Assembly (NCBI GenBank): GCA_963529135.1
Contig: CAURYQ010000003.1
Coordinates: 19,827 to 83,826, forward strand
Length of the DNA: 64,000 nucleotides
Source of the DNA: an uncultured Pseudomonas sp.
GTDB lineage: Bacteria > Pseudomonadota > Gammaproteobacteria > Pseudomonadales > Pseudomonadaceae
Direction: 5' to 3'
Shown here: positions 21,036 through 64,000 of the stretch, piece by piece
Position numbering within the stretch: position 1 is the first letter of the stretch
How the letters are laid out: each line of letters opens with the position of its first letter
Made by a program: the position numbers and the translations under genes
Notes under the pieces: model-generated
What the model was told of the DNA's origin: nothing
Seen by the model: the letters and a program-made list of their open reading frames with translations, nothing else
Databases searched by the model: none

Positions 21036-21244
21036 CATTTTTCGAGTCGGCTGTTTTGCTAGCCCCAGCTTTATCCCCCTCCTTAACCCGCGATCAAACC
21101 GCCGACGGCTAGGACGACAGGACCTGTCACTGGCACTGCTCTCTCCGCGATTACCAGTGATACATCATGTTCAGCGAATGGAAACTACTCAGGTTCACCA
21201 GGGGCTATTGAACCTTGGCCGCATGAATCGATAGAGCTTTTTTA

Positions 21245-21267
21245 GTTAGAAAAAATTTTTTTATGAT
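21245..21267 (+). promoter_or_regulatory. Copy 1 of a shared AT-rich motif, GTTAGAAAAAATTTTTTTATGAT
   Basis: 20/23 identical to 53115-53137. Related TGTTAG(A) cores occur at 39545, 45495 and (reverse strand) 33925. Confidence 0.3.
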
Positions 21268-21860
21268 CCCTCACAGCCGTTGAGCTGCGCGGACTGGAAC
21301 GATTGTTCAGCAAATGATGTCACATTGCTGGTATCGCATACCCGTAGCCGTTTGAGAGAAAATCGCGCCCCCTTTGGCCTGTCGGTTTCGAATTCTACGA
21401 CGTTCTCAGTAGTGTCAAGCCGCGAGAAACCGGGCGTTTTGCGGTAACGAACGTATACACAACGGCGGCATCCAGAGATGCTGCATCACGCTGAGGCGTC
21501 GACTCGGCGAATGTCATGGAGGGCATACAGAGCGTGTAAGGGGGTCCAGCCCTAAGGTTCCTCAAATTACGCCATATCTAGATGAGCTGCAGCTGACGAA
21601 GCTTTGGCGTGAAAAATCGCCTGAAGATTGATGGTGCTGAACCATCAAAAAAATACTCAGAAATTCATTTTTTGAATGATGCGGTTCAGAACTGTGTTGA
21701 TCGTAGCTTGCGCTTTTAAAACGGGTGAGGCCTCGTGGCTGGGGCCGATGGCGGCTTTTTGACTATCGAAGGTTGCTTTGAGCTATCCATTTAAATGCGC
21801 TTACGAAAGGCATGAACTTCCGGCTCGAAAGCCGCGCGCTAGAAAATCTGTCGCTCTAGC

Positions 21861-21889
21861 TTGATATTTTTTGTTTCTGTCAAAATAAC
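21861..21889 (+). promoter_or_regulatory. Candidate sigma70 promoter for the icmM/L/K... operon
   Basis: TTGATA, a 17-nt spacer, then AATAAC, about 55 nt upstream of the ATG at 21943. Pattern match only. Confidence 0.25.
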
Positions 21890-21942
21890 GCTGTTGCGTA
21901 TTTCTAAGTTTTGAATGAAAATGCCGCCTCATGGAGTGAGAT

Positions 21943-22209
21943 ATGGATCAGCTCGAATCAACCTCGACGGCATGGGGCGCTGGTGCCGGCGATGATGTGG
22001 ATGTGCGTGCGCTGCGACGCTACAACCGAATGCTTGCCATTTTGCTGGATGTTGGAGAGTGGGCCTGCCTAGCCCTCCTGCCTTGCGTGGCGGTCGCAGC
22101 GGTCTGGCTGGTAACGCAGACCAACTTTGAAAATGTCGTGTTCTATGACGGAACAGACTCGATTTGCATTTATGACGGAACGACAGGGGAAATCCGTAAT
22201 GTCGAGTAA
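21943..22209 (+). CDS. Small membrane protein in the position of IcmM/DotJ
   Basis: 88 aa with one TM (LALLPCVAVAAVWLV). GGAGTGAG RBS. Lies directly upstream of, and overlaps, the IcmL gene, as icmM does in Legionella. The assignment rests on position and size only. Confidence 0.45.
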   Translation: MDQLESTSTAWGAGAGDDVDVRALRRYNRMLAILLDVGEWACLALLPCVAVAAVWLVTQTNFENVVFYDGTDSICIYDGTTGEIRNVE

Positions 22210-22963
22210 GGAAACCCAGAACGGAGCCCCAGATGGAGAGCGTTCTGACGGCCAACGGGGCTCGGATGAGCAGAAGCTTCTCGAGTTGGCGCTTGACGAA
22301 ACACCAGGTGAAGCCGCTGCGACTGTTCGGGAAGTCAAACGGCTGCAACTGGAGTGCCTTGACCTCAAGCGCCGTAACAAGCGTGTATGGGGTCAGCTAC
22401 TGGCGCTCACATGCGTGTTCGGAATCACCCTTGCGGCTGTGGTTTTCCTTTATCCGAAATACCGTTGGATCCCTACCACCGACAACCACGCTATCTGTGA
22501 GGTTTCGACCGAGGCCAACCCGCGGGTAACGCCGGCTACATTGGCTGAGTTCGCCAAGGATGCCGTGGTCAATTCCTATTCGTACGATTACGTCAACTAC
22601 CGCTCTAACCTCAACGCTGCTGGCGCTCGTTGGTATACGGATGACGGACGCAAGGCCTTCCTCAAGACATTGGACGATTCAGGCAACCTGGAGCGAGTGC
22701 TCAAAGGCCGGATGATTTTGCGCGCCATGTCGACTCAGGTAGCACAGGTTGAGGAAAGCGGAGTGCTGGCCACCGGCCAGAACTATTGGCTGGTGCAAGT
22801 ACCGATCGCCATTGAGTTTTATGTCGGCGGGGACCAACAGCCGCGCTCACGTCAAGACTTCCTGGCTGCGGTAACCATTGTCCAGATACCAGCCTCGGCT
22901 ACCAATACCAAGGGCATCGCCGTCGATTCTGTTCAGCTGTCGCCGTACATTCCAAGGAAGTGA
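22199..22963 (+). CDS. icmL: IcmL/DotI (IncI TraM) family T4BSS inner-membrane protein
   Basis: One TM, then a periplasmic domain with the family pattern ...AVVNSYSYDYVNYRSNLNAAGARWYTDDGRKAFLKTLDDSGNLERV...NYWLVQVPIAIEFY. Confidence 0.8.
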   Translation: MSSKETQNGAPDGERSDGQRGSDEQKLLELALDETPGEAAATVREVKRLQLECLDLKRRNKRVWGQLLALTCVFGITLAAVVFLYPKYRWIPTTDNHAICEVSTEANPRVTPATLAEFAKDAVVNSYSYDYVNYRSNLNAAGARWYTDDGRKAFLKTLDDSGNLERVLKGRMILRAMSTQVAQVEESGVLATGQNYWLVQVPIAIEFYVGGDQQPRSRQDFLAAVTIVQIPASATNTKGIAVDSVQLSPYIPRK

Positions 22964-22965
22964 CC

Positions 22966-23979
22966 ATGAAGAAGCATCTGATCGCATCGTTGCTTGCGAG
23001 CGCTATCGCCGTCCCAGCGTTCGCTGACGAGCCGCAAACTGCAGCGCCTGCTGGCGATCCAGCCCGGCAGGCACAGGCGATGCAGGACAGCGACGCGCCG
23101 CCGCAACCGCCCGCCAATGGTCTGGGCCGGCAGGTGTCGGGAGTAGCTCAAGTGGTCTACCCACGTCCGGAGGACGTAATCAGCGAAACCGTGCAGGATG
23201 TGCGCGACTCTCAGTTGACTCCGGCGCAGCTGGAGTTGATCAAGACATTGTGGCTTGAGCGGGAAAAGCAGAAAGCCAATGCCTACGTCAGCCCCGCCAA
23301 ACCGGTGACGCGAACCTTGGCTTTGAACCTGGATCCAGGTGTTTCACCGCCCATCGTGCGCCTGAGCAAGGGTCAGCAATCTTCGATCGTCTTTTCGGAC
23401 TACGCCGGTCAGCCCTGGATGATCCAGAACGTCTCGATCAATCGCGAGCTGTTCAGGGACGGGCGTGAGCGCGGTAGCCAGAATGGTCAGGACGGCACCG
23501 CAGTACCGACCAATATATTGACACTCGACCCCGCCACTGCAGCGGCCTATGGCAACGTAACCGTGACGTTGAGAGGGCTGGCTACGCCGATCATCTTGAT
23601 TCTGGCGGCCGGTCAGGATGAAGTGGACATGCGTGTAGATGCCAAGGTACCTGGCCGCAATCCCGATGCGGTCGCCAGGATCTCGCTCTTGCAGATGCCG
23701 AGCATTGACGACTCGCTTGCCTACTTCCTCGACGGTGTTCCACCGAAGGAGGCGCAGCGCCTGAAAGTGACTGGGTTGGACGGCGTGGAGGCCTGGCGTT
23801 ACGGCCCGAACATGTATGTGAAAGCCAAGGCTGACGCTCAGTACCCTGCCTACACCAATGCTGCGCGTAGCACCACAGGGGTCGCTGTATACCGCTACGC
23901 CGGTCTGCAGAACAGCGTCACGTTCACCACCGGCGGGCAAGCCGTGACTGTCTTCATCGAGCAAGGGAATGTGCAATGA
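22966..23979 (+). CDS. icmK: IcmK/DotH (IncI TraN) outer-membrane core-complex protein
   Basis: Signal peptide MKKHLIASLLASAIAVPAFA. Conserved block PPIVRLSKGQQSSIVFSDYAGQPWMIQNVS. Position between icmL and icmE. Confidence 0.85.
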   Translation: MKKHLIASLLASAIAVPAFADEPQTAAPAGDPARQAQAMQDSDAPPQPPANGLGRQVSGVAQVVYPRPEDVISETVQDVRDSQLTPAQLELIKTLWLEREKQKANAYVSPAKPVTRTLALNLDPGVSPPIVRLSKGQQSSIVFSDYAGQPWMIQNVSINRELFRDGRERGSQNGQDGTAVPTNILTLDPATAAAYGNVTVTLRGLATPIILILAAGQDEVDMRVDAKVPGRNPDAVARISLLQMPSIDDSLAYFLDGVPPKEAQRLKVTGLDGVEAWRYGPNMYVKAKADAQYPAYTNAARSTTGVAVYRYAGLQNSVTFTTGGQAVTVFIEQGNVQ

Positions 23980-25406
23980 GCGATAACAGAACACCGCCAA
24001 GTGACGCTGGCTTCGATGAAGAGCATGAGCCGCTGGTGGCCGACCGTGATGGTGCCCCAGGTGGAGGCGCCAAGGCGCGCAGATCCGATGAGATGCAACG
24101 CAACCTTCGAGCTGTTTTCGGCTCTGGAGTAGGCAAGGTCTCGTTGATCGCCGCCGCTCTGGTCATCGTGGCCCTCGCTGCCATGGCCTACAACGGCATG
24201 ACCTCCAAAGACACGCCGACTGGCAAGGCATCTACCGTGGATGTGCCTCGAGCGCCGCAGCCTGAGGTATCGGTCGAGCCCATCTCAGCGGCCGAAGCGG
24301 AGCGTCGCGCCCAACGTAGTTCGCTGGAAGCCGAGCAGGCAGCCGAGCGAGGAGCCTCTTATCAGCCAGGTTTCGATCCGAACATCGTGGTCAACGACAG
24401 CCCACGCAGCCGTGGCCAGAACGCGCAGTTCAATGTACCTGGGCAGCCCTACGAGCAAGGCTCGGCGGAATTGCCGAATACGAACTTCGGCGGACAGGCC
24501 AACAACCAGTTCTACCCAGGCAACACCCCGAACGCGAGTGCCGCAGCTGTCAGTGCCCAGAATGATGAGCAGGAGCGTCGTCGGATAGAGCAAGAATTGA
24601 AGAAGGCAGAGCAGGAGCGCGATGCCTACGTGAACGAGCTGCGTGCAGAAACTCTCAAGTCGATCAAACAGATGATGGGCGAGTCGGAGAAGGCCAAGGG
24701 CTTTGCTGACAGAACGAGCTTCAGCACGGTCAGCTACTACCCCGTGCCGCGTAACGGCGGGGAGCAAGCAGGCGCTGCGCAGCGTGCCGTCAAGGAAGAA
24801 AAAGACCCTAACAGCATCGAAGCTGTGGGTGACACCGATCGTGAGCTACTGATCAAGACCGGTACCATCATGTACGCAACGCTGGATGCGGAGGTCAACA
24901 CCGACGATGGTGGCGATGTGTTGGCCACTGTACGTGGTGGCAAGTGGAACGGGTCCAAGCTCATCGGCAAGATCGAGCAAGCACCGGACAACATTCGCGT
25001 CAAGTTCACCATTCTCGCTCCGCCTGCGAACGATACACGTCCTACCATGCGCATCAGCGCAGTGGCATTGCGTGAGGACGACGCCAAGCAGGGCATCGCC
25101 GAAACCAAGGACCATCACACCATGGAGCGTTATTTCGCCCTTGGCGCCGCTTCGCTTCTCTCCGGTTACGGGCGTGCCTATCAGCAAACGGCAGGGACAA
25201 CCATCATCAGCCCAAGCGGTGTGGTGGCTCAGACCACTACCGAGCCGTCGACCAAGCAAGTGATCGGTACATCCGTAGGCGAGCTGGGTTCCTCGATCGC
25301 CTCGGAAGTGCGTCGCGGCTTCAACCGTCCGGCCACCTATGCCACCCCGGCGAACAAGGGCTTTGGCCTGTTCTTCCTGCAAGACGTTCACGATCAATCT
25401 CGATAA
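23976..25406 (+). CDS. icmE: IcmE/DotG (IncI TraO), VirB10-like core-complex protein
   Basis: N-terminal TM, Gln/Asn/Pro-rich linker and a C-terminal TrbI/VirB10 domain (KTGTIMYATLDAEVNTDDGG...KFTILAP...GFGLFFLQDV). ATGA overlap with icmK. Confidence 0.85.
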   Translation: MSDNRTPPSDAGFDEEHEPLVADRDGAPGGGAKARRSDEMQRNLRAVFGSGVGKVSLIAAALVIVALAAMAYNGMTSKDTPTGKASTVDVPRAPQPEVSVEPISAAEAERRAQRSSLEAEQAAERGASYQPGFDPNIVVNDSPRSRGQNAQFNVPGQPYEQGSAELPNTNFGGQANNQFYPGNTPNASAAAVSAQNDEQERRRIEQELKKAEQERDAYVNELRAETLKSIKQMMGESEKAKGFADRTSFSTVSYYPVPRNGGEQAGAAQRAVKEEKDPNSIEAVGDTDRELLIKTGTIMYATLDAEVNTDDGGDVLATVRGGKWNGSKLIGKIEQAPDNIRVKFTILAPPANDTRPTMRISAVALREDDAKQGIAETKDHHTMERYFALGAASLLSGYGRAYQQTAGTTIISPSGVVAQTTTEPSTKQVIGTSVGELGSSIASEVRRGFNRPATYATPANKGFGLFFLQDVHDQSR

Positions 25407-25416
25407 GGAGTTCGAC

Positions 25417-26052
25417 ATGAAGAACTGGTCGTTCGGAAAACTCATCGGCGTGTTCGCCGGCAGCTTCGTGGCGCTCATCGTGATTGCCGTGGTTGTGCTC
25501 AAGGCGACCTCATCGCCAACCGCCAAGACCAAACGTGTGGCTCAGGTGCAGGCGCAGCAGGCACAACCGGCTCGCATGGACGTGTTGAGCATCGAGCTGG
25601 CCAAGTCCAAAGAGCAGGCACAGGCGGCACTGCAGGCCCAGCAGAACAGTGAGAAACAGCTGGCAATCATCCGCCAAGAGTCACAGCGTAATACACAACT
25701 GCTACTTGAGCGCATCCAGCAGATGGACACGAAGTTTGCGCAACTGGACCTGCGCATGGATCACTTCGAGCAGAGCCGTCAGCGCGTGGAGATCATCAAG
25801 CCACCGCGCAAGCCTGTGACCCCTGCCGTACAACCTGTGCGTACGCAAGCCCATGTCAGCAGAGCCAATGCTATGCCGTCCTCTAGCGGTTACAAGGTGC
25901 AGGCAGTGGTTGGGCATCGCGCCTGGGTGCAGAACGGTGACGGTGAAGACAGTGTGAAGGCTGGCGACAAGCTTCCACCTGCTCAGCGGGAACTGAAGGT
26001 GCTGAAGATCGATAGCAACAGCGGCATCGTGGTCACGTCACCCGCTCTATAA
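25417..26052 (+). CDS. icmG: IcmG/DotF (IncI TraP)-like core-complex protein
   Basis: One TM, a Gln-rich coiled coil and a C-terminal YKVQAVVGHRAWVQNGDG...VLKIDSNSGIVVTS block like the IcmG C-terminus. AAGGAG RBS. Confidence 0.72.
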   Translation: MKNWSFGKLIGVFAGSFVALIVIAVVVLKATSSPTAKTKRVAQVQAQQAQPARMDVLSIELAKSKEQAQAALQAQQNSEKQLAIIRQESQRNTQLLLERIQQMDTKFAQLDLRMDHFEQSRQRVEIIKPPRKPVTPAVQPVRTQAHVSRANAMPSSSGYKVQAVVGHRAWVQNGDGEDSVKAGDKLPPAQRELKVLKIDSNSGIVVTSPAL

Positions 26053-26066
26053 CCAGGGAAGTTCTC

Positions 26067-26651
26067 ATGGCAGCCGGATATGCCGACCTCGTAGAGGTCA
26101 TGGTCAACATCGGGAAAGTAGTCCCGACGGCCATCATGATGTGCCAGGGTATTGCCGCATTGATCGGCCTTTACCTCACGTCCGCCGCATTGGTGGAGAT
26201 ATGGGGCGTCACCCATGACAACGCGCTGAAATACGTCGCCGGGCGACAGCGTTTCTCGGTCGGCTCAGCCTGCGTGCAGTTGCTCATAGGTTCGATACTG
26301 CTGGCCATCGGTACCCTGGAATGGATGGGAATCATGTCGCGCACGCTGACCGGCGACTATGCCAATTCGCGCATGTTGTCCTATTCCGCGTCAGGGACCA
26401 CGTTGCAGGAACAGGCGCAGCTGGCAACGTTGGCATTGCTGGGCATCATGCAAATCGTGGGCTTCATCGCCATGGTCAAGGGCTGGCTGACTGTAAACGG
26501 TTACTTCAACAATCAGACCCAAGCCGGTTTGGGGACCGCTTTCGGATGGATCATCGGCGGCATCCTGGCATGGAACTTCAAATGGTTCAGCGACGTACTC
26601 AACAACACAATCGGATTCAATCTGGTTGGACTTTTCACGCCGTGGTCGTAA
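26067..26651 (+). CDS. icmC: IcmC/DotE (IncI TraQ)-like polytopic membrane protein
   Basis: 194 aa with 4 TM helices. Conserved position after icmG. Confidence 0.55.
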   Translation: MAAGYADLVEVMVNIGKVVPTAIMMCQGIAALIGLYLTSAALVEIWGVTHDNALKYVAGRQRFSVGSACVQLLIGSILLAIGTLEWMGIMSRTLTGDYANSRMLSYSASGTTLQEQAQLATLALLGIMQIVGFIAMVKGWLTVNGYFNNQTQAGLGTAFGWIIGGILAWNFKWFSDVLNNTIGFNLVGLFTPWS

Positions 26652-26686
26652 CGGCTTCTCAAAATGAAACTCAAGGAGCGTCACTC

Positions 26687-27067
26687 ATGAAAGCACTCGG
26701 AACCCTGAAAGCTGCTTACGATTCGGTCAAGGTCCGCGCAACTACCGCTGTTATCGGTGCCTTGGCGGCACCTTCGGCCTTTGCCATCACTAAGACTGAC
26801 TTGACCCAGGATACTTCGGGTGGCAAGACCGCCAGCGACGTGATGTCCAACATCGATGACACGGCCCAAGGTGGTGCCACGCTCCTGATTTCCCTGGTCT
26901 CCATTGGGGGCTTCGTGGTGGTGGCCATGTCGCTGTATACCCTGTGGAAAGCTTCCAAGGATGAGCGTGAGAAGCCGCTGTCGGCAATCGTCGGCCTATT
27001 TATCGGCGGTTTGATGGCTGGCGTGGGTACCGTCATGTGGATCATGCGCAATACCACCGTCGGCTAA
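26687..27067 (+). CDS. icmD: IcmD/DotP (IncI TraR)-like small membrane protein
   Basis: 126 aa with a signal-like N-terminus and 2 C-terminal TM helices. AAGGAG RBS. Conserved position after icmC. Confidence 0.55.
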   Translation: MKALGTLKAAYDSVKVRATTAVIGALAAPSAFAITKTDLTQDTSGGKTASDVMSNIDDTAQGGATLLISLVSIGGFVVVAMSLYTLWKASKDEREKPLSAIVGLFIGGLMAGVGTVMWIMRNTTVG

Positions 27068-27101
27068 ACCTTTGCATCAAAGGCTACAAAAGCGGGGCGC
27101 A

Positions 27102-27887
27102 ATGCCCCGCGTTCTAAGGACAACCCCGGGGCAACCAGGCGTGAGTGCAAAACCCTCTTCCGAACACAGGGCAGTCGATGTCCCGACCCAGGCGGCTGGC
27201 TACGTCAGCCGCAGTGCCAATCAGCCAGTGTTCGGCGTGCGTCGTCCGCTGTGGCGTTCCGATGACGACCAGCGCACATTGATGAGCCCGGTACACGACA
27301 AGCTGCGCACCAGTGTGCTGCAGCGAGACAACTACACCTGTCGGTTTTGCGCCTTCAAGTCTGCCAAGTTTCAGGAAATTCACGCGCTGGACGGGAATCC
27401 GGAGAACTGTACTAAGGAGAACCTGATCACAGCCTGCAATCTGTGCCGACAGGTTCATCACCTGGGTGCCTGCGCCATGAATGGCACAGGCTTCTTTGTC
27501 GCCGTGCAGGAATTGACGCAGACGGAAATCAACAACATTGCCCGTGCCATCTATGTAGCTGAGTTGCTGGGCGATGACGAGACCAACGCGAAGCTGACCA
27601 GCCTGCTGGCTGCGTTCAGGTTTCGCGGCAGCGATACGCTCAAGCAAGTATTCGAAGGCGAGGTGATAACCGTCCTGGCGGTAGCAGAAACCTTGGCCAG
27701 CAAGACCTTGGTAAGCGACGAAGAATACACCAGGCGTGCCCAATGGCTGGCCCCACTGCGGCTCTTCCCCACGAAGCAGGCATTCAAACAGGGCCAGCTC
27801 GACTATTACGCGGCCAACAATCGCACCCTGTTTTCACCGGACAACTGGGCGGCTCAGGCCGACCTGCTCATGAAGAATTTCGTTTGA
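27102..27887 (+). CDS. icmJ: IcmJ/DotN (IncI TraT)-like zinc-binding coupling-complex subunit
   Basis: QRDNYTCRFCAF ... ENLITACNLCRQVHHLG Cys4-type motif as in DotN. Position before icmB. Start uncertain (27072 TTG, 27102 ATG or 27141 GTG). Confidence 0.65.
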   Translation: MPRVLRTTPGQPGVSAKPSSEHRAVDVPTQAAGYVSRSANQPVFGVRRPLWRSDDDQRTLMSPVHDKLRTSVLQRDNYTCRFCAFKSAKFQEIHALDGNPENCTKENLITACNLCRQVHHLGACAMNGTGFFVAVQELTQTEINNIARAIYVAELLGDDETNAKLTSLLAAFRFRGSDTLKQVFEGEVITVLAVAETLASKTLVSDEEYTRRAQWLAPLRLFPTKQAFKQGQLDYYAANNRTLFSPDNWAAQADLLMKNFV

Positions 27888-27950
27888 TGCACCATTTCGC
27901 AGTACTGACCAGCTTCGCCGTTGAGACAGTCATCCAGGGAGAACAAGGAC

Positions 27951-31013: not shown

Positions 31014-31024
31014 GGGGGTGACCG

Positions 31025-53074: not shown

Positions 53075-53114
53075 GTATCAGGTCCTTCTGGAATCAAATT
53101 CGTAAAGATGGGTT

Positions 53115-54467: not shown

Positions 54468-54513
54468 TGGCGAGGGGCTGTCCGACGTCTGCCCGCAGAG
54501 CAAGGAATCAAGG

Positions 54514-55158: not shown

Positions 55159-55186
55159 CGGCTGCCAGTGCACTGGAGGTTAGGTC

Positions 55187-55927: not shown

Positions 55928-56006
55928 CCGGCAGTTCAGGCGCTGTCCTGCTTCGCGAGCAGCGAGCAGTGCCTTAAACGCCGGTCCAGCAAAGACTGAG
56001 TTGATT

Positions 56007-56447: not shown

Positions 56448-56463
56448 AGGTGGACTCCCGATT

Positions 56464-56889: not shown

Positions 56890-56935
56890 TGCGTTCTCCT
56901 TGCAGGGCAGTTGGATGGTCGGGAGCGTGTGCACC

Positions 56936-58237: not shown

Positions 58238-58264
58238 CTGTTTCTACCTTTCGTATGCGCCGCA

Positions 58265-59398
58265 TTATCTAATGGATCTGGTAACAGCTCCTTTCTGAGC
58301 GCGATCTCGTGCCCATTCGGTCTGTGCCCGTTGACCTGCCAATTTCTGCGACGCGTAAACGGCAAGCAGTGCTTCAACTTTTTCTTTCTTGCGATAAATC
58401 GCTTCCGAGAGATAGTTACTAACCCCTACCGCTCGGTTGTAGTCGACCCAGAGGGCGCGACTGGAAACGTGGGTGATACTGGTGTTCCACTCTGCATCGC
58501 TAAACCGCCTGGTGGCTTCAGTCGTCAACATTTCAGCGACCGACATCGTGTCATACCCACCTATGGGTGGAGTAGGGAGCGCACCGTAACCATCGGCATC
58601 GGACAGATACGCTGCAGGTACCTTGCCGTCAGCCTGCGCCAGCGCCGCGTCGGCGTTGGCAGCTGCCACTTGCACAGGTTCCACTGTCGAGTCCGGCTGC
58701 ACGCCACCTGATGGCACGTTGCCGAACAGGATTTCGTGCTGGGCCTTGGTGTCCTTGCCCAGGATCGGATAATGCTCTGGGTGTCCGTCTTGAATAGGGT
58801 AAGTTTGGCAGAAATAGGGGGCTGGGTCAGTTTTCCAACCAATGTCTGCCTGGCGGTTGAACACAGGCGCTAGCTGCCCGGCATTGAAGGGACCCTTGTG
58901 CGCGTTTTCAGCGAACGCCTTGGCACGGGCCGAATCCTTGGCAGCCGTTCCATAGGTGAAGTGAAGGTGCTTGACCATCGATGCGCTGGGTGTGTTGCCT
59001 GACAAGCCCAGTTGTTGCCCGGGTTTCACCGTGACCCCGCGCTTGACCCCATTGGCGAAACCGCTCAGGTGGTAATAGGCCACCACGTCGCCATTGGCGC
59101 GTTCGATCAGCACGGCGTTGCCGGCCGAGCCGCGCAGGCCGGCAAAGACGATTTTGCCTTCGGTGGTTGCGTAAACCGGCTGTGACGAGCCGCTGGTGGA
59201 AAAGTCCAGGCCATCGTGCATGTGCGCTTTCTTGTTGGCTGAGCCAAAGTTGCCTGCACCACCGCCACGGAACTTGCCGAAGCGCCCTGAGACGACTTCT
59301 TTGTCCGTAGGAGACACCATGCATGTGTCTGCAAGGGTTGCTTGGGCTATGGCAATCATCGTGATGGCAACCATGCCACGCATAACGGTTGTGTTCAT
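58265..59398 (-). CDS. Secreted M23-family metallopeptidase (peptidoglycan endopeptidase) with an extra C-terminal domain
   Basis: Signal peptide. HxxxD motif (HMHDGLDF) and HxH-type motif (VKHLHFTYG) of LytM/M23. The 170-aa C-terminal extension ends in a helical region reminiscent of the upstream paralogues. Confidence 0.8.
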   Translation of the reverse strand: MNTTVMRGMVAITMIAIAQATLADTCMVSPTDKEVVSGRFGKFRGGGAGNFGSANKKAHMHDGLDFSTSGSSQPVYATTEGKIVFAGLRGSAGNAVLIERANGDVVAYYHLSGFANGVKRGVTVKPGQQLGLSGNTPSASMVKHLHFTYGTAAKDSARAKAFAENAHKGPFNAGQLAPVFNRQADIGWKTDPAPYFCQTYPIQDGHPEHYPILGKDTKAQHEILFGNVPSGGVQPDSTVEPVQVAAANADAALAQADGKVPAAYLSDADGYGALPTPPIGGYDTMSVAEMLTTEATRRFSDAEWNTSITHVSSRALWVDYNRAVGVSNYLSEAIYRKKEKVEALLAVYASQKLAGQRAQTEWARDRAQKGAVTRSIR

Positions 59399-59411
59399 GC
59401 GGGATGCTCCG

Positions 59412-60593
59412 TCACCTGACGCTCCGTTGTACGTTCTGTTTGGCTGCATCTTCAGCCGCTTCGCTGGTGCGTGCCTGTGCCCCACTGCTGGTCACTTGCA
59501 TCGAAACCAGTGAGGCCAATTGGGCCTCCATGTTTTCGTACTGGCGGTACTGTTTTTCCAGAATCGCCAAGTCCAGAGCCTTGATTTTCAGCAGCTCGAC
59601 CAGGGCCCCGCGTTCGTTCTGGGCAGCCATTACGCGTGCCCAGTTGTTGTACTCACTCGTATTTCCCGAGTAGCGCTTGACCTCTGTGCGAAAGTGCTGG
59701 GCGAGGGGCAGGTCAATGCCCGTTTCCTTGCCCTCGACGCCTGAATAATCCAGCTGGATGGCCTTCAAAGTCGCGATGGCCGGCGATACCAGTGCATCTT
59801 TGCGGGCCTTCGACAGCGCATAGTCAGCGGTGGCTGCCGACTGCCCGGCCGCTGCAGGCACCGGGCCATCGGGCAGCCCTGCGACGTTGTTCACGAAGCT
59901 GACTTTGGCGCTGTATAAAGGCTCATCCTCCATGGCAGGTTCGAACAGCGTGGCCACGGTAAGATCGGCCCCCGGCATGGAGCCTACACCCTTGCACAGA
60001 CCAGAGTCGGCTTGGTCTTGAGTGCAGAATGACTGGCGAGCCTTGAGCAGAGCCGCTTGTGTAGCAATAGGATCGGCGTAGGTGCCGGGTGCTGCGGCCA
60101 CTTCGGAGCGAACCCGCTGGCGCACCTCGGTTGCCATGTCTGCATCCCGGTTACTGATTACCTGGCGCGCGGCATAGACCGTACAGGGCGAATAACCTTG
60201 TCCAAATTCACCGCCATAATCGAAGCGCGCCTGCTTGACCCGCTCCGTCTGAGCCAGAACGTTAAGAGCGTTCGCTGTCTGCAGGGCGGAGTTGCGACCG
60301 GCCTCTGCCATGGTATTGGCTGACAACGCCTTCTGCTTGGTCAAGACGGCTATGGCCGACGTCAGGCGTTGGCTTTCGGTCTCGAGCAGCGCCGACAACG
60401 ACGCGTCCACTGTCGACATGGCAGCATTGAGCGTCTGCGTGGCGATGGTGAAGGCGGGCGCGACTACTGTCTCTTGATACTGGGGCGGGCAGTAAGCCCA
60501 TGCCAACGTTGACGTGAGTGCCAACGAAATGCCAAATGACACCTTCCACTTGCGCGACTCGCGTGACGGGTCGAAATCCTTTTTCATGTCCAC
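59412..60593 (-). CDS. Secreted protein, paralogue 1 of a triplicated family (possibly IcmX/TraW-like, tentative)
   Basis: Shares with 60595-61731 the blocks SA(I/V)A(V/I)(L/A)TKQ(K/E)ALSAN, FCTQ..AD..LC, LFEP, K.RKDAL, the Q.ERG.LVE-like block and QY.Q...L..LASLV. Confidence 0.68.
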   Translation of the reverse strand: MDMKKDFDPSRESRKWKVSFGISLALTSTLAWAYCPPQYQETVVAPAFTIATQTLNAAMSTVDASLSALLETESQRLTSAIAVLTKQKALSANTMAEAGRNSALQTANALNVLAQTERVKQARFDYGGEFGQGYSPCTVYAARQVISNRDADMATEVRQRVRSEVAAAPGTYADPIATQAALLKARQSFCTQDQADSGLCKGVGSMPGADLTVATLFEPAMEDEPLYSAKVSFVNNVAGLPDGPVPAAAGQSAATADYALSKARKDALVSPAIATLKAIQLDYSGVEGKETGIDLPLAQHFRTEVKRYSGNTSEYNNWARVMAAQNERGALVELLKIKALDLAILEKQYRQYENMEAQLASLVSMQVTSSGAQARTSEAAEDAAKQNVQRSVR

Positions 60594-60594
60594 C

Positions 60595-61731
60595 TTACTT
60601 CACCTGCTGCTTGGCGGTTTCTGAAAGGACCTTTTGGTAGCGCATTTCCAAAGGCCCCGCCATGTTGTCCGAGGAGGCAACCACCAGGGAGGCCAGGTTA
60701 GCCAGCAGACGCTGGTTCTGCTCATACTGCTGATGGTGTATCCAGACTTCCAGTCCGCCCATCTTGGCGGCCTCTACCAGCAACCCACGTTGGGTCTGAC
60801 GAGCGAGGTTGCCCGACCACTGCTGTGATTCCTTGCCCCCGAAATACTGATTAACGCGCAGACGCAGAACTTCATTCGGAGACTTGCCACCGAACTCCTT
60901 AGTGCGAGTGTTTGCCGCGTCGATCATCGCCAAGCTGTAGGTGGGTACCGACAGCAGCGCATCCTTGCGATTCTTCTGTGCCAAATAGGCTTCGCCGGCT
61001 GGTGTGCCACCGGCATTCTTGTCCAATGCCTGGTCAGGCGGGCCGATCACGTGCTGTATGTAGGCGGTACGGGCGTCAGTGGTCAGCGAATCGGCATCTG
61101 CTGGCTCGAACAGCAGCGCGGCGTTGGTGTCGCCGCCTGGTAGCGGACTGAGCGTACACAGGTTGGCATCGGCCTCCGCCTGTGTGCAGAACTTTTCACG
61201 ATGATTATTCAACCGTTGTTGCATGGCGTCAGGCGCCGATTTGACCAGCCGCCCTGGCGAGGCGTCCAGCGTGCCGACCGCCTGTTTGGCTCTGGCGGCC
61301 ATGGTCGTGAAGGCCAGATCCATGGATTTGTTCTTGGCCACGGTGCCGCACGGATCGAAGCCTTGGCCAGTGCCTGCGTTGAAATCCAGCCACGTCTTGG
61401 CCAGTGCAGAGTTTTCCTGCTGCGCCCGAATGGCGTTGACCAGCTGTTCGGCGGTCTGCCGGTTATTGTCCGCGACCACGTTGGCAGACAGTGCTTCTTG
61501 CTTGGTGGCGATAGCCACTGCCGAGATGATCTGCTCGAACTTGTAGGTCATCTGGCCACCGAAGCTGGTGCCGAATGCCCCGATGTTGGCCGAGACCGAA
61601 GCGGTCAACATGGCCAGTTGCGCCTCTGTCCACGCCTCTGCCGGACCGAACCCGTACAACGCACCGTAGCAAACGCTGGACATCAAGGTCGACCCTGCGA
61701 CGATGCCTGCTATCTTGAGTCGAAAATTCAT
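60595..61731 (-). CDS. Secreted protein, paralogue 2 of the triplicated family
   Basis: Signal-like N-terminus. Same conserved blocks as paralogue 1. 1-nt intergenic gaps on both sides. Confidence 0.68.
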   Translation of the reverse strand: MNFRLKIAGIVAGSTLMSSVCYGALYGFGPAEAWTEAQLAMLTASVSANIGAFGTSFGGQMTYKFEQIISAVAIATKQEALSANVVADNNRQTAEQLVNAIRAQQENSALAKTWLDFNAGTGQGFDPCGTVAKNKSMDLAFTTMAARAKQAVGTLDASPGRLVKSAPDAMQQRLNNHREKFCTQAEADANLCTLSPLPGGDTNAALLFEPADADSLTTDARTAYIQHVIGPPDQALDKNAGGTPAGEAYLAQKNRKDALLSVPTYSLAMIDAANTRTKEFGGKSPNEVLRLRVNQYFGGKESQQWSGNLARQTQRGLLVEAAKMGGLEVWIHHQQYEQNQRLLANLASLVVASSDNMAGPLEMRYQKVLSETAKQQVK

Positions 61732-61732
61732 A

Positions 61733-62488
61733 TCACTGCCCTGTGAGCATGGGTACGCGACGGTCAGTCACTTGCCCAACGAGAGAGTTGGCTGCCATGG
61801 CGCTGCTGGCCGAAGCGGCCAACTGCTGCGCCTGCGCGGCGTTGCAGGCGGCCGTTTTGCAATCGATATGCGCCTCGGCTCGCTGGTCGGTGATCATGGC
61901 CGCGTAAGCCAGTGCCGCCGTTTCGCCTTCAGGTGCGAGCGTCCGCTCGCTGAAAGGACCGGCGTAGTCGGCATCCCAGCCCTGCATTCCGTTGGCGTTG
62001 AGTGCACACATGCCCTGCCTGGCCTCGGAAACCGTGCAGTAAGTTGTACGGTGCATGGACAAGGTTTGTTCGTCGGCACTGGCGCGCGAGCCTACGCGCT
62101 GAGATGCGTATGAAGCCATCAGATGCGCGGCGTCCTTGTCGCGCTGAGACTGGGCTTCGACGAACAGTTTGCCTTGTTCCTGTGCGGTGCATTTGATCGT
62201 GACAGGTTGTCCTACGGCCGGATCGAACGATGAGACTGCCTTGACGGCGCGGTTCGACATATCGATGGCACCCACCGCATTGGCCAACTGTTTCTTGGCG
62301 TCGGCATCCATCTGCGAAACCACATTGGCCGACAGCGCTGTCTGCTTGACCGAGATCGCCCACGCACTCATTTCCGTTTGCATGGTGCTGATGAATGTAA
62401 GTACCGAGGCCCAGGACAAAGCCTGTGCGGGCAATGCCACTGCGGCCGTGCTGAGTCCGATAGCCAGAGCTGCTGCAATTTTCTTCAT
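61733..62488 (-). CDS. Secreted protein, shorter paralogue 3 of the family (251 aa)
   Basis: Signal peptide MKKIAAALAIGLSTAAVALPAQA. Retains VKQTALSANVV and YCTVSEARQGMC blocks. Confidence 0.65.
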   Translation of the reverse strand: MKKIAAALAIGLSTAAVALPAQALSWASVLTFISTMQTEMSAWAISVKQTALSANVVSQMDADAKKQLANAVGAIDMSNRAVKAVSSFDPAVGQPVTIKCTAQEQGKLFVEAQSQRDKDAAHLMASYASQRVGSRASADEQTLSMHRTTYCTVSEARQGMCALNANGMQGWDADYAGPFSERTLAPEGETAALAYAAMITDQRAEAHIDCKTAACNAAQAQQLAASASSAMAANSLVGQVTDRRVPMLTGQ

Positions 62489-62498
62489 ACCATGGACC

Positions 62499-63341
62499 TT
62501 AGTTGAACAGGCCTGCGGCCGAGCTGGGCGACCCGCTGCTGCTTGATGAGGAGCTGGCACCGCCACTTGAAGATGCGCCGGACGAGGTACTAGGTGCCGG
62601 TGCTGGGGTACTGGACGCAGCTGGGCTGACTGTGGTCGGGGCGGGGGTCGTCCCAGCACCTGTGCCGCCGCCGAAGTCGGTCTGGACGTAATTGAACGGG
62701 TTTACATCCACGGTGTAAGTGGCTTCGTACCCAGCTGCAGGCTTGTGATAGCTCGCACCCAGCTCAGGATCCAGGGTACTCATGCCTTTGCTGACCATGC
62801 CGTTGGTAAGCCCGTTGAGGTCGCCGATGGAAGTACCGCTGCTGACTTTGCCAATAGCTTGGTTGATGGGCGTGGTCACCATCGAGGCGACTTGCTGCAC
62901 GGCAGTGCACACTTTCTTCTGTGCGTACTTCAATACCGCCTGCTGGGCCGACGCCAAGATCGCACCCAGGCTTGGGATGGATCCTGATAGATCGAACAGA
63001 CTGCCGAGCCCGCCGAAGCAGTCTGCCGTGGCACTGAACAGCGATTCGACGTTAGGGGTTGCCGCAGACAGCTCGGTGTGAATCAACAGCGCATCATTGA
63101 TGGCCGCGCCAATCGAACCTTCTTTTTGGCCAGTGGCGCAGTCTTCTGCGTCCGCCTTGATTGCGTCTGCGACTACTGAGTTCTGTTGGGAGATCAGCTC
63201 GCTGGATGTGGCTCCCAAGCTACTGGTTGCAGCCAAAGCGGGTGCCGCCATCAGCCACAGGCCCAGCACACTGCCTAATGCTGCGCGAGTACCCACAGAT
63301 TGACCTGCCGCTGCTCCAAGCGTGCGCTGTCCGTTATACAT
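62499..63341 (-). CDS. Secreted protein with a Ser/Thr/Pro-rich C-terminal tail (280 aa)
   Basis: Signal-like segment LGLWLMAAPALA. C-terminus TPAPTTVSPAASSTPAPAPSTSSGASSSGGASSSSSSSGSPSS. Confidence 0.62.
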   Translation of the reverse strand: MYNGQRTLGAAAGQSVGTRAALGSVLGLWLMAAPALAATSSLGATSSELISQQNSVVADAIKADAEDCATGQKEGSIGAAINDALLIHTELSAATPNVESLFSATADCFGGLGSLFDLSGSIPSLGAILASAQQAVLKYAQKKVCTAVQQVASMVTTPINQAIGKVSSGTSIGDLNGLTNGMVSKGMSTLDPELGASYHKPAAGYEATYTVDVNPFNYVQTDFGGGTGAGTTPAPTTVSPAASSTPAPAPSTSSGASSSGGASSSSSSSGSPSSAAGLFN

Positions 63342-63852
63342 CTGCGTAATTCTCCATGATCTGTGAAATCTCGCACAGGCGCTCGTTTGAGAAGATCTCG
63401 CTGAGCAATCGGGCCTTGGTGAAAACCTCCAGCCGCTGTCGGAATACGCTCAATTCAAGAGACTCAGAGGCGTTGTCCGCTAGCAAAGGGGCCAGCGCGG
63501 GCTTGAAGGCATTATTTTGTTGGATAACGTACTGCAATAGGTAGGTGCAGCGTGCGGTGGTCAGGTGGGCCAGCATTTCGGCAAATGGACGAAGCACTTG
63601 GTGTAGTGAGCTGGCACAGCCATCCACCAAGTCCTGGACCTCCTGCATCAATAGCTGAATGTCGAACTGCGGCGCCCCATCAGCATGGTCTTGATCGATC
63701 GCCCAGCGATCGAGCGTGTTCATGCTCAACAGTAAGGTCTGTAGCTGGGCACTGTGGGGTTCCCTGGCAAAGTGACCCATCACACCCTTGCCCGTTAGGT
63801 CGAGCGACTCGATGGTAGGCGTAGGTGAGCCTTTGAAGCAGTATGTGTCCAT
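63334..63852 (-). CDS. hypothetical cytoplasmic protein (172 aa), first gene of the minus-strand operon
   Basis: Stop overlaps the next start (ATGTATAA). Preceded by an AT-rich leader. Confidence 0.58.
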   Translation of the reverse strand: MDTYCFKGSPTPTIESLDLTGKGVMGHFAREPHSAQLQTLLLSMNTLDRWAIDQDHADGAPQFDIQLLMQEVQDLVDGCASSLHQVLRPFAEMLAHLTTARCTYLLQYVIQQNNAFKPALAPLLADNASESLELSVFRQRLEVFTKARLLSEIFSNERLCEISQIMENYADV

Positions 63853-63917
63853 TCCCTGTACCTGACGAAAGCATATGTAAATACGCTTAAATGCATCCTG
63901 TTTTTAATTCTGTATCA

Positions 63918-63946
63918 AAAATACTGGCGTATCAACTTTTTGACAA
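63918..63946 (-). promoter_or_regulatory. Candidate sigma70 promoter for the 63852-to-56007 minus-strand operon
   Basis: On the minus strand: TTGTCA, a 17-nt spacer, then TATTTT, about 60 nt upstream of the ATG at 63852. Pattern match only. Confidence 0.25.
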
Positions 63947-64000
63947 GAAAATTACTTAGTCGCGGTAGGGCATTTGGCCAGCACTGTACGGCATTTGTTG

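What the first reader, a model, noticed from the sequence alone, without database searches (positions are those of the whole stretch)
21040..64000. Chromosomal Dot/Icm-like type IVB secretion island with toxin-like cargo and no DNA-transfer genes in view
Seen: directly after the terminator of the GabP-like gene the GC content drops and about 45 tightly packed ORFs begin. By motif and order I recognise IcmM?-IcmL-IcmK-IcmE-IcmG-IcmC-IcmD-IcmJ-IcmB, which is the same order as the Legionella icm region. These are followed by DotL, an IcmV-like protein, a lytic transglycosylase and DotD-DotC-DotB (Legionella order again). Next come IcmT, DotM, a DsbC/TrbB-like oxidoreductase, DotA and an OmpA-like DotK analogue. 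Established: this set is the shared core of IncI (R64 Tra/Trb) conjugation and of the Legionella/Coxiella effector-translocating systems. Not seen anywhere in 43 kb: relaxase/nickase, oriT accessory protein, thin-pilus genes, integrase, IcmS/IcmW/IcmQ/IcmR or IcmF/DotU. The non-core ORFs instead include a Tle1/DUF2235-type lipase, an M23 peptidase, many secreted unknowns and small acidic ORFs. Inference: this is an effector-translocating T4BSS in a free-living pseudomonad, plausibly used for contact-dependent antagonism of other bacteria or eukaryotic grazers rather than for conjugation. From memory, T4BSS-dependent bacterial killing has been described for a Pseudomonas putida strain (IsoF, kib locus). 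I cannot test whether this is that locus.
Basis: partly seen in the sequence, partly recalled or inferred. Interest (0 to 1): 0.9.

Follow-up and report, generated by a model that had tools for sequence, protein, structure and literature searches.

The report
kib-type bacterial-killing type IVB secretion island
This 43-kb stretch is a complete copy of the already described "kib" type IVB secretion island that Pseudomonas putida IsoF uses to kill neighbouring bacteria. Here it sits in a Pseudomonas fulva-like chromosome without any DNA-transfer or integration genes, so it is a new member of a known system.

Summary
Window 20972-64049 is a 43.1-kb island of lower GC (0.57 against 0.63-0.64) with 43 tightly packed genes.

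Profile searches confirm IcmL, IcmK, IcmE, IcmG, IcmJ, IcmB, DotL, an SLT transglycosylase, DotD, DotC, DotB, IcmT, DotM, a DsbG-like protein, DotA, an OmpA-like protein, a Tle1-like lipase and an M23 peptidase.

IcmW is present, at 63334-63852 on the minus strand.

No relaxase, integrase, tRNA or att repeat was found. Identical metagenome contigs and island-free relatives place both borders exactly, and stressosome genes follow on the right.

Gene order and gene lengths match the published P. putida IsoF kib island from PisoF_02313 to 02357. The counterpart of the immunity protein 02332 is about 95% identical to kib-strain proteins and keeps the C-terminal FxxxLxxxK motif. The counterpart of the effector 02333 is about 65% identical.

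This is therefore a known kind of system: contact-dependent antibacterial killing by a T4BSS (2022).

Side findings:
- Island-free relatives keep diverged copies of two secreted island proteins at the same site.
- The 02332-like protein is as conserved as the core ATPases.
- DotL carries a class-3 intein in its Walker A loop.
- Related plasmids carry 41 of the 43 genes.

The parts
20999..21036 (+). Hairpin terminator of the gabP-like permease gene. Homology with island-free relatives ends at 20971, which marks the left border.
20972..64000 (.). Lower-GC island, 43.08 kb in all. It continues 49 bp past the window to 64049, then rsbR-like stressosome genes follow.
21943..22209 (+). No profile support. 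60% identical to the gene upstream of icmL on a P. savastanoi plasmid.
22199..25406 (+). IcmL/DotI, IcmK/DotH and IcmE/DotG, components of the inner-membrane and core complexes.
25417..27067 (+). IcmG/DotF (TraP-like, weak hit) followed by two small membrane proteins in the IcmC/DotE and IcmD/DotP positions, assigned by position only.
27102..31013 (+). IcmJ/DotN and the IcmB/DotO ATPase.
31025..33895 (+). DotL/IcmO coupling ATPase, 956 aa.
31451..31900 (+). Class-3-type mini-intein of 150 aa inside the Walker A loop of DotL (GSGK | intein | T).
33973..35116 (+). Counterpart of PisoF_02323 (membrane protein with a zinc ribbon; required for killing in IsoF as part of a three-gene deletion), and the TrbN-like SLT transglycosylase.
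35196..37806 (+). DotD lipoprotein, DotC and the DotB ATPase.
37838..40580 (+). IcmT, DotM/IcmP and a DsbG/TrbB-like periplasmic thiol-disulfide oxidoreductase.
40593..41387 (+). Counterpart of PisoF_02331, function unknown.
41637..42479 (+). Counterpart of the immunity protein PisoF_02332 (280 aa, C-terminal FxxxLxxxK). Identical to a protein named as P. fulva by NCBI (WP_280076358.1).
42485..43057 (+). Counterpart of the effector PisoF_02333 (190 aa, conserved C-terminal QQDMGRFF). Confident model with no match to any solved fold.
43095..43943 (+). Counterpart of PisoF_02334, a lipoprotein. A 57% identical copy is kept at the same site in island-free relatives.
44012..44997 (-). Two genes of unknown function, counterparts of 02335 and 02336, transcribed away from dotA.
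45732..49010 (+). DotA/TraY family protein. Contains a 111-nt tandem repeat at 48535-48769.
49074..52424 (+). Module with the Tle1/DUF2235-like hydrolase (50091-51869; GxSxG motif, no signal peptide) flanked by three small cytosolic proteins (counterparts of 02338, 02339 and 02341).
52541..53074 (-). Counterpart of PisoF_02343, a secreted protein. A 58% identical copy is kept in island-free relatives.
53356..55927 (+). A membrane protein, an OmpA-like lipoprotein (labelled 'DotU' in IsoF; DotK-like) and two unknowns, one with a FliH-like GxxxG repeat.
56007..58237 (-). Counterparts of 02349 (secreted), 02350 (acidic; a predicted effector in IsoF) and 02351 (433 aa; nearly free of transposon insertions in IsoF).
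58265..59398 (-). M23 metallopeptidase with a signal peptide. 77% identical to the copy on the plasmid.
59412..63341 (-). Three paralogous secreted proteins (counterparts of 02353, 02354 and 02355) and a secreted Ser/Thr-rich protein (02356).
63334..63852 (-). IcmW, the adaptor of the coupling complex. It is the last gene of the island.

Best explanation
The region is a chromosomal orthologue of the kib island of Pseudomonas putida IsoF. That island is a Dot/Icm-like type IVB secretion machine that injects toxic proteins into neighbouring Gram-negative bacteria on contact.

Shown here:
- The machine genes are complete and intact: the core complex DotC/D/F/G/H, the inner-membrane parts IcmL, IcmT and DotA, the ATPases DotB and DotO, the coupling proteins DotL, DotM and DotN with the IcmW adaptor, and cell-wall and disulfide helpers.
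- They lie in the same order as in IsoF and are under purifying selection.
- Counterparts of the validated effector and immunity pair lie after dotM.
- No DNA-processing or integration gene exists between two exactly mapped borders.

Inferred:
- The DotL precursor must first splice out its Walker-A intein.
- The DotL-DotM-DotN-IcmW complex then recruits cytosolic substrates: the 02333-like protein, probably the Tle1-like hydrolase, and perhaps the 02332-like protein through its FxxxLxxxK helix.
- These pass through the envelope channel into a contacted cell.
- The producer is protected by island-encoded immunity.
- The island came from a plasmid-borne T4BSS and spread between related chromosomes by recombination in the conserved flanks.
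For: - Profile hits for 18 machine or cargo genes.
- Gene-for-gene match in order, annotation and length to PisoF_02313-02357 (against 3, 12, 28, 64).
- The 02332 counterpart is 93-95% identical to proteins of P. putida-group genomes, including P. monteilii and P. juntendi. FxxxLxxxK occurs only in this protein and in a membrane segment of IcmT.
- The 02333 counterpart belongs to the same family as the IsoF-lineage protein.
- Killing, immunity and the need for dotHGF and for 02323-trbN-dotD were shown experimentally in IsoF (PMC9519443). A rhizosphere fitness effect was shown later (PMC13600407).
- No relaxase, integrase, tRNA or repeat was found, and the borders are mapped.
- dN/dS is 0.07-0.11 over 18 genes against sibling contigs from other samples.
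- Six species-representative Pseudomonas genomes carry syntenic loci, with DotB 93-95% identical.
- Ten plasmids carry a homologue of the 02332-like protein; all ten are typed non-mobilizable, and one was read in full. It carries 41 of the 43 island genes.
Against: - No experiment exists for this strain or lineage.
- The effector counterpart is only about 65% identical to the IsoF-lineage protein, and its activity is unknown. A confident model (pLDDT 85) matches no solved fold.
- IcmS and LvgA, the partners of IcmW in Legionella, were not detected.
- A related plasmid Icm/Dot system in Xanthomonas euvesicatoria showed no toxicity toward E. coli (PMC10432156).
- The IsoF sequence itself was not available, so identity to IsoF rests on proxies: lineage proteins, primers and gene lengths.
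Confidence: 0.82

Rival explanations
1. The island is a conjugation machine or its remnant. On this reading it is an IncI-like Tra/Trb system that still moves DNA, either the island itself or a plasmid in trans, using a relaxase that current models do not recognise.
For: - Several best hits are to IncI conjugation models: TrbC at 271 bits, DotA/TraY, TraP, TraO and IcmT/TraK.
- The closest plasmid relative carries ssb, a topoisomerase, an ArdC-like zincin protein, and LPD1 and strawberry-notch polyvalent proteins, all typical of conjugative elements.
- The 02351 counterpart has a faint match to the C-terminal part of a MobP1 relaxase model, E = 0.0016.
Against: - No relaxase catalytic domain, NikA-like protein, pilus gene or integrase was found in any of the 43 genes.
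- The MobP1 match lies outside the catalytic region and Pfam does not reproduce it.
- All ten related plasmids are typed non-mobilizable.
- The ssb, topoisomerase and ArdC genes are absent from the island.
- IcmW, a protein-substrate adaptor, is present.
- The IsoF orthologue kills by delivering protein.
- Preliminary data found that the Xanthomonas Icm/Dot system does not contribute to plasmid transfer.
Confidence: 0.06
2. The main targets are eukaryotic cells such as amoebae, plants or animals, as for Legionella and Coxiella. The lipase and other cargo would then act on host membranes.
For: - A Dot/Icm-type coupling complex with IcmW is present.
- Tle1-family phospholipases can act on eukaryotic membranes.
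- The 2026 paper places the IsoF system next to a Yersinia pseudotuberculosis T4BSS linked to pathogenicity.
Against: - Bacterial killing is the demonstrated phenotype of the orthologous system.
- No Legionella-type effector families were detected.
- This is not exclusive of the best explanation.
Confidence: 0.08
3. The island is an inactive, decaying remnant with no current function.
For: - It has no mobility genes.
- Relatives have reduced the same locus to two genes.
- It lacks a counterpart of PisoF_02342.
Against: - All 43 reading frames are intact.
- dN/dS is 0.07-0.11 against sibling contigs.
- Catalytic motifs are intact in Tle1, M23, the ATPases and the intein.
Confidence: 0.04

Closest known systems
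kib genomic island of Pseudomonas putida (capeferrum) IsoF (Purtschert-Montenegro et al. 2022, PMC9519443; follow-up PMC13600407)
   Same: - Same gene order and near-identical gene lengths from PisoF_02313 to icmW (02357).
- Same effector and immunity gene pair after dotM, with FxxxLxxxK in the immunity protein.
- Same Tle1-like, M23 and OmpA-like genes.
- Lower GC than the host genome.
- No relaxase.
   Different: - Different species background. The exact proteins are named P. fulva or 'uncultured Pseudomonas', and flanking GC is about 0.63-0.64.
- The effector counterpart is only about 65% identical.
- Island GC is 0.57, against 0.60 for the IsoF kib cluster.
- There is no counterpart of PisoF_02342, and DotA is about 300 bp shorter.
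- The island ends right after icmW. It lacks 02358, the nuclease and helicase, the type I restriction-modification genes and the integrases, and has no tmRNA nearby. The paper reports similar 3' deletions in other orthologues.
- Whether the chromosomal site is the same as in IsoF could not be checked.
Legionella pneumophila / Coxiella Dot/Icm T4BSS
   Same: - Core complex, ATPases, DotL-DotM-DotN coupling proteins and IcmW.
- The gene orders icmL-K-E-G-(C-D)-J-B and dotD-C-B.
   Different: - IcmS, LvgA, IcmQ/R, IcmF/DotU, IcmX and IcmV were not detectable.
- The demonstrated target of the orthologue is bacteria, not eukaryotic cells.
- DotL carries an intein.
IncI1 plasmid R64/ColIb-P9 Tra/Trb conjugation system
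   Same: Shared T4BSS core, with hits to the TraI, TraP, TraO, TraK, TraY and TrbC models, and a TrbB-like oxidoreductase.
   Different: No NikA/NikB relaxosome, oriT or thin-pilus genes. IcmW is present.
Plasmid-borne Icm/Dot clusters of plant-associated bacteria (P. savastanoi CAS03 plasmid NZ_CP032457; Xanthomonas plasmids such as NZ_CP137541 and pXCV183)
   Same: 41 of the 43 island genes have homologues on the P. savastanoi plasmid (36-83% identical over the best local match; IcmL in two pieces), including the 02332/02333 pair, the M23 operon and the DotL intein.
   Different: The plasmid also carries replication, partition, ssb, topoisomerase and polyvalent-protein genes that the island lacks, and its modules are scattered. 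The function of the plasmid systems is unknown.
Xanthomonadales X-T4SS (VirB/D4 type IVA) bacterial killing system
   Same: Works alike: contact-dependent delivery of toxic effectors into rival bacteria, with cognate immunity.
   Different: It is an unrelated machine class (type IVA). Its effectors carry XVIPCD signals and its immunity proteins are periplasmic.
Class 3 (WCT) inteins: Burkholderia vietnamiensis IcmO intein (InBase; PMC2807308) and Mycobacterium smegmatis DnaBi1 (PDB 6BS8; PMC6195587)
   Same: - Inserted after the GK of an ATPase Walker A loop.
- No N-terminal Cys or Ser.
- Trp in block B, Cys in block F and T-H-N at the end.
- Full-length sequence match to 6BS8 (E = 4e-10).
   Different: The host protein here is the kib DotL, and the +1 residue is Thr. 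Splicing and any redox control are untested.

Membership tests
kib-type antibacterial T4BSS island (P. putida IsoF) | Gene-for-gene synteny with PisoF_02313-02357 | tested here: met
   The published gene table and the lengths derived from its Tn-seq counts match the window gene calls. Only 02342, and possibly the small 02346, have no counterpart.
kib-type antibacterial T4BSS island (P. putida IsoF) | Orthologue of the immunity protein PisoF_02332 with a C-terminal FxxxLxxxK | tested here: met
   280 aa ending FFGMLEKRKKHEG. It is 93-95% identical to kib-strain proteins whose C-terminus (KKHED) equals the one encoded by the IsoF primer.
kib-type antibacterial T4BSS island (P. putida IsoF) | Orthologue of the effector PisoF_02333 immediately downstream | tested here: met
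   190 aa, overlapping the stop codon of the upstream gene. It is 65% identical to P0129 (strain NFX1, IsoF lineage), whose N-terminus MQMG equals the IsoF primer sequence. Family motifs and the C-terminal QQDMGRFF are conserved.
kib-type antibacterial T4BSS island (P. putida IsoF) | T4BSS-dependent contact killing and self-immunity | not testable with these tools
   Needs competition assays with dot and effector/immunity mutants.
Dot/Icm-type T4BSS | Core complex DotC, DotD, DotF, DotG, DotH plus IcmL, IcmT and DotA | tested here: met
   Pfam and NCBIfam hits. The DotF hit is weak (TraP, E = 5e-9).
Dot/Icm-type T4BSS | ATPases DotB, DotO/IcmB and DotL/IcmO | tested here: met
   T2SSE at 94 bits. 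DotO is 79% identical to an annotated DotO. DotL matches TrbC at 271 bits and has 10,081 homologues at E <= 0.001.
Dot/Icm-type T4BSS | Effector-adaptor module IcmS-IcmW-LvgA on DotL | tested here: inconclusive
   IcmW was found. No IcmS or LvgA was found by Pfam, NCBIfam or a PDB sequence search of all unassigned ORFs.
Dot/Icm-type T4BSS | IcmQ/IcmR and IcmF/DotU accessory proteins | tested here: not met
   No hits. The gene labelled 'DotU' in IsoF is an OmpA-domain lipoprotein.
IncI-type conjugative transfer system | MOB relaxase (NikB) with an accessory protein and oriT | tested here: not met
   No relaxase family was found in any ORF. The only trace is a faint, non-catalytic MobP1 match. 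oriT itself cannot be tested by sequence alone.
IncI-type conjugative transfer system | Thin-pilus (pil) genes | tested here: not met
   No pilin or pilus-assembly family hits in the island.
Integrative and conjugative element / integrase-borne genomic island | Integrase, flanking direct repeats and a tRNA or tmRNA target | tested here: not met
   No integrase. No tRNA or tmRNA in the island or in the 8.3 kb to its right; the only tRNA in the window lies 10 kb to the left. The longest shared border k-mer is 10 bp. The borders coincide with the ends of core-gene homology.
Class 3 intein (IcmO/DnaB P-loop type) | WCT triplet, no N-terminal nucleophile, Thr/Ser at +1, insertion in Walker A | tested here: met
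   The sequence reads GSGK|PQP...TGDHLW...CRCIEID...VTHN|T. It matches 6BS8 over its full length (E = 4e-10). The motifs are invariant in seven other loci.
Class 3 intein (IcmO/DnaB P-loop type) | Protein splicing activity | not testable with these tools
   Needs a western blot or reporter assay.

The most novel reading that the evidence does not exclude
The published one-pair picture of kib may be incomplete, in two ways.

1. The 02332-like 'immunity' protein may be a core factor of this T4BSS clade. It is as conserved as the core ATPases (94-96%), while its partner effector has drifted to 63-69%. It is present in every plasmid relative and has a short stretch resembling a winged helix. It could be a regulator or a co-translocated adaptor. 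The two secreted proteins that island-free relatives keep under purifying selection at the same locus (the 02334-like lipoprotein and the 02343-like protein) would then be stand-alone protective genes against periplasm-acting cargo such as the Tle1-like hydrolase.

2. Firing of the machine may be gated after translation by splicing of the class-3 intein in the DotL Walker A loop.
Probability: 0.15. Interest if true: 0.6.

Novelty: new member of a known kind. Interest (0 to 1): 0.35.

Why it matters
T4BSS-mediated killing of bacteria has been shown in a single strain, so every further intact locus widens the known range of the weapon. This copy places it in a P. fulva-like lineage that turns up in several unrelated sequencing samples. 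It is also a minimal 43-kb version with no integrase, restriction or helicase genes attached, which helps define which genes are sufficient.

The comparative data collected here give testable leads that the published work did not raise:
- Which genes protect against the system, given the two genes kept by island-free relatives.
- Why the 'immunity' protein is as conserved as the motor ATPases.
- Whether an intein controls the coupling ATPase.

As a discovery in its own right it is modest, because the system, its plasmid relatives and IcmO inteins are all already described.

Tried and rejected
- **Is the window IsoF itself?** Four IsoF primers around the effector and immunity genes give no match at up to 3 mismatches. 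One chance hit fell elsewhere. Rejected.
- **Exact-protein look-ups.** DotB and IcmW are found only on Logan and ENA assemblies. GabP is also found in two NCBI assemblies, both island-free. The organism is inferred from protein names only.
- **Function of unassigned ORFs.** 25 ORFs were joined and searched against PDB sequences with no result. NCBIfam and Pfam at permissive thresholds also gave nothing usable.
- **Specific guesses not supported.** These were an IcmS-like reading of the 02338 counterpart, an LPD7/relaxase-tail reading of the 02351 N-terminus, and an IcmV-like reading of 02323.
- **Structure prediction and fold search.** The 02332-like model (pLDDT 86) and the 02333-like model (pLDDT 85) have no match at E <= 0.001. 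The only signal is a stretch of about 50 residues in the 02332-like protein that resembles DeoR/Lrp winged-helix domains.
- **Rfam on the island.** No RNA family found.
- **Border repeats.** Nothing longer than 10 bp. Repeats inside the island are chance-level apart from the DotA tandem repeat.
- **Is the DotL intein new?** No. An IcmO class-3 intein is already catalogued, and at least 53 of the 150 best DotL representatives carry one at this site.

Full report
**What is there**

GC drops from 0.63-0.65 to about 0.57 directly after the gabP-like permease gene (19579-20970; AA_permease, 398 bits) and its hairpin terminator at 20999-21036. From there to the window end I genes with a coding density of 0.91.

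- IcmL/DotI, IcmK/DotH and IcmE/DotG. DotG scores 143 bits on the Dot/Icm model against 51 on IncI TraO.
- A weak TraP/IcmG match, IcmJ/DotN, and IcmB/DotO (weak P-loop hits only).
- DotL (TrbC model, 271 bits), an SLT transglycosylase, DotD, DotC, DotB, IcmT and DotM.
- A DsbG-like oxidoreductase, DotA/TraY (453 bits) and an OmpA-domain lipoprotein.
- A Tle1-like hydrolase with an intact GxSxG motif, and an M23 peptidase with intact HxxxD and HxH motifs and a signal peptide.

The 'IcmM?', 'IcmC', 'IcmD' and 'IcmV-like' labels have no profile support and rest on position only.

IcmW is encoded at 63334-63852 on the minus strand, with Pfam PF23130 at 43.6 bits against a cut-off of 27. IcmS, LvgA, IcmQ/R and IcmF/DotU were not found.

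**Borders, and what lies beyond the window**

An ENA metagenome scaffold is 100% identical to window 53334-64000 and runs 8.3 kb further. About 340 bp after icmW come rsbR/STAS stressosome genes, histidine kinases and a TonB receptor, at GC 0.64. A second scaffold of the same sample is identical to 13579-26970.

Several genomes and metagenomes encode the identical GabP protein but lack the island. Their flanks are 90-91% identical to the window in DNA. Homology stops at 20971 and resumes at 64050.

The island is therefore 20972-64049, or 43.08 kb. It contains no integrase and no relaxase. There is no tRNA or tmRNA in the island or in the 8.3 kb to its right, no border repeat above 10 bp and no Rfam family.

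**Identity**

The 2022 paper (PMC9519443) describes a 66.9-kb island of 61 genes. Its T4BSS part kills Gram-negative bacteria on contact. Mutants lacking dotHGF or 02323-trbN-dotD lose killing. PisoF_02333 is the effector and PisoF_02332 the immunity protein.

The supplementary gene table, with gene lengths derived from its Tn-seq counts, matches the window gene for gene:

| IsoF genes | Content |
|---|---|
| 02313 | hypothetical protein |
| 02314-02317 | DotI, DotH, DotG, DotF |
| 02318-02322 | 'DotIE', hypothetical protein, DotN, DotO, DotL |
| 02323-02329 | hypothetical protein, TrbN, DotD, DotC, DotB, IcmT, DotM |
| 02330-02336 | disulfide isomerase, then six hypothetical proteins (02331-02336) that include the effector and immunity pair |
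| 02337 | DotA-like |
| 02340 | 1.8-kb gene, the Tle1-like hydrolase |
| 02345 | 'DotU', which is the OmpA-like protein |
| 02352 | M23 peptidase |
| 02357 | IcmW |

The window's 280-aa protein ends in FFGMLEKRK, the FxxxLxxxK motif reported for 02332. The motif is the LvgA-recognition signal of Legionella effectors (PMC7251119). The next gene overlaps its stop codon and encodes a 190-aa protein with a Gln-rich C-terminus, as described for 02333.

The window is not IsoF, because four IsoF primers do not match. The 280-aa protein is identical to WP_280076358.1, which NCBI names as P. fulva. It is 93-95% identical to the proteins of P. putida-group genomes, whose C-terminus KKHED equals the one encoded by the IsoF primer.

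The effector counterpart is 65% identical to P0129 from strain NFX1 (named P. capeferrum in PMC12986786; IsoF is treated in a P. capeferrum study, PMC13600407). The N-terminus of P0129, MQMG, equals the IsoF primer sequence.

Six species-representative genomes carry syntenic loci at 75-82% DNA identity: P. parafulva, P. hunanensis, P. juntendi and three unnamed species.

Three Logan contigs from other samples are 98.8-99.8% identical to the window. Over 18 genes, two of them (L001, L002) give dN/dS of 0.07-0.11, so the island is maintained by selection.

**How it most likely works**

*Shown.* The machine is complete and intact, it has a protein-substrate adaptor (IcmW), it lacks DNA-processing genes, and it carries counterparts of the validated effector and immunity pair.

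*Established elsewhere.* The orthologous system kills by contact and improves rhizosphere persistence.

*Inferred.*
- DotL-DotM-DotN-IcmW recruits cytosolic substrates and passes them through the DotC/D/F/G/H channel, powered by DotB and DotO.
- Candidate substrates are the 02333-like protein, the Tle1-like hydrolase (no signal peptide; predicted as an effector for IsoF in PMC13600407) and possibly the 02332-like protein.
- The SLT, M23, DsbG-like and OmpA-like proteins serve envelope assembly. The M23 operon is 72-77% identical on the related plasmid (icmW, its first gene, only 44%), so it looks like a core component rather than variable cargo.

**Origin**

Ten plasmids of P. syringae/savastanoi, Xanthomonas, Aeromonas and Bordetella carry a homologue of the 02332-like protein. 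All ten are typed non-mobilizable.

The P. savastanoi plasmid has homologues of 41 of the 43 island genes. It also carries RepA, ParM, ssb, a topoisomerase, an ArdC-like protein and polyvalent proteins, none of which the island has. This agrees with the plasmid origin suggested in 2026. The island looks like a stripped-down chromosomal version.

**Rivals**

- *Conjugation.* IncI-flavoured model hits and the plasmid's leading-region-like genes argue for it. The lack of any relaxase, the presence of IcmW and the experimental data argue against it. A faint MobP1 match in the 02351 counterpart lies outside the catalytic region and was not reproduced.
- *Eukaryotic targets.* This is not excluded and is not exclusive of the best explanation.
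- *Decay.* Intact frames and purifying selection contradict it.

**Side findings**

1. *Genes kept by island-free relatives.* These relatives keep two genes between gabP and rsbR that are 57-58% identical in protein to two island genes. One is the lipoprotein just downstream of the effector (43095-43943). The other is a secreted protein near the Tle1 module (52541-53074). They are intact in more than 20 contigs. dN/dS is about 0.15-0.29 for the lipoprotein copy and 0.42-0.55 for the secreted-protein copy.
   - The 2026 paper mentions 'partial loci' that may encode orphan immunity proteins, without naming genes. These two are concrete candidates.
   - Against this idea: in IsoF Tn-seq, 02343 is not depleted on solid medium or in co-culture, and 02334 is lower only on solid medium alone.
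2. *Uneven conservation of the pair.* The 02332-like protein is 94-96% identical across lineages, like DotO and DotB. Its partner is only 63-69% identical. Both families occur at fixed length across Beta- and Gammaproteobacteria. This pattern is unusual for a toxin and immunity pair and hints at a core role for 02332. In IsoF, 02332 on a plasmid protected the mutant lacking 02332 and 02333, but not the mutant lacking the whole island. Fold searches gave no answer.
3. *Intein in DotL.* DotL carries a 150-aa class-3 intein in its Walker A loop. The intein is conserved in all kib-like loci examined, and intein-less alleles exist at 73% identity. IcmO inteins are already catalogued. A related DnaB intein is a redox switch.

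**Verdict**

The system is already known, and this is a new member in another Pseudomonas lineage.

Noticed in passing
window 31451-31900 (inside dotL, 31025-33895): A 150-aa class-3 (WCT) mini-intein splits the Walker A loop of the DotL coupling ATPase (GSGK|...THN|T). It matches the solved DnaB intein 6BS8 over its full length. It is conserved in all kib-like loci and in the P. savastanoi plasmid. Intein-less DotL alleles exist, and at least 53 of the 150 best DotL representatives carry an intein at this site. IcmO inteins are catalogued, but no paper in the searched library mentions both 'intein' and DotL.
   Followed up: yes
L012 7784-8608 and 8675-9154 (also L013, L014, L016, L017, L021-L028), against window 43095-43943 and 52541-53074: Relatives without the island keep, at the same gabP|rsbR site, intact diverged copies (57-58% aa) of two secreted island proteins. 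The lipoprotein copy is under purifying selection; the secreted-protein copy less clearly (dN/dS 0.42-0.55). They are candidate stand-alone protective genes or remnants of an older island.
   Followed up: yes
window 41637-42479 against 42485-43057: The counterpart of the published immunity protein is 94-96% identical across Pseudomonas lineages, like the motor ATPases. The adjacent effector counterpart is only 63-69% identical. Both families are present in every plasmid relative examined.
   Followed up: partly
window 48535-48769 (3' part of dotA): A 111-nt tandem repeat (2.1 copies, 86% match) encodes a repeated 37-aa segment in DotA. The IsoF gene is about 300 bp longer by Tn-seq arithmetic, so copy number may vary between strains.
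   Followed up: no
window 59412-62488 (-): Three consecutive genes encode paralogous secreted proteins (28-35% identical to one another) between the M23 peptidase and icmW. All three are kept on the plasmid. In IsoF this operon and 02351 have low transposon densities.
   Followed up: partly
window 56936-58237 (-): The counterpart of PisoF_02351, which is nearly free of insertions in IsoF Tn-seq (0.009), has a faint match of its N-terminus to the non-catalytic C-terminal part of a MobP1 relaxase model (E = 0.0016). Pfam does not reproduce it.
   Followed up: partly
window 55187-55927 (+): The protein has a weak FliH-like match (E = 9e-7) over a GxxxG-rich repeat (EGFEQGREYGYAEGWNAG). It may be a repeat artefact or an ATPase-regulator-like motif.
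   Followed up: no
between window 52424 and 52541: IsoF has a gene of about 1.26 kb (PisoF_02342) between the 02341 and 02343 counterparts. The window has no room for it.
   Followed up: no
L019 and L020 (P. savastanoi plasmid NZ_CP032457): The T4BSS plasmid carries ssb, a topoisomerase, an ArdC-like zincin protein, and LPD1 and strawberry-notch polyvalent proteins, which are hallmarks of conjugative elements. Yet it is typed non-mobilizable with no recognised relaxase.
   Followed up: partly
window 8145-10429, next to tRNA-Val at 10836-10915: A second small low-GC patch (0.53) holds three ORFs with no Pfam match, beside a tRNA gene. It lies well outside the T4BSS island.
   Followed up: no
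window 20972-21942: A 970-bp AT-rich non-coding stretch lies at the left end of the island, upstream of the first gene. It has no Rfam hit and no sigma-70 consensus site. It may hold regulatory sites.
   Followed up: partly
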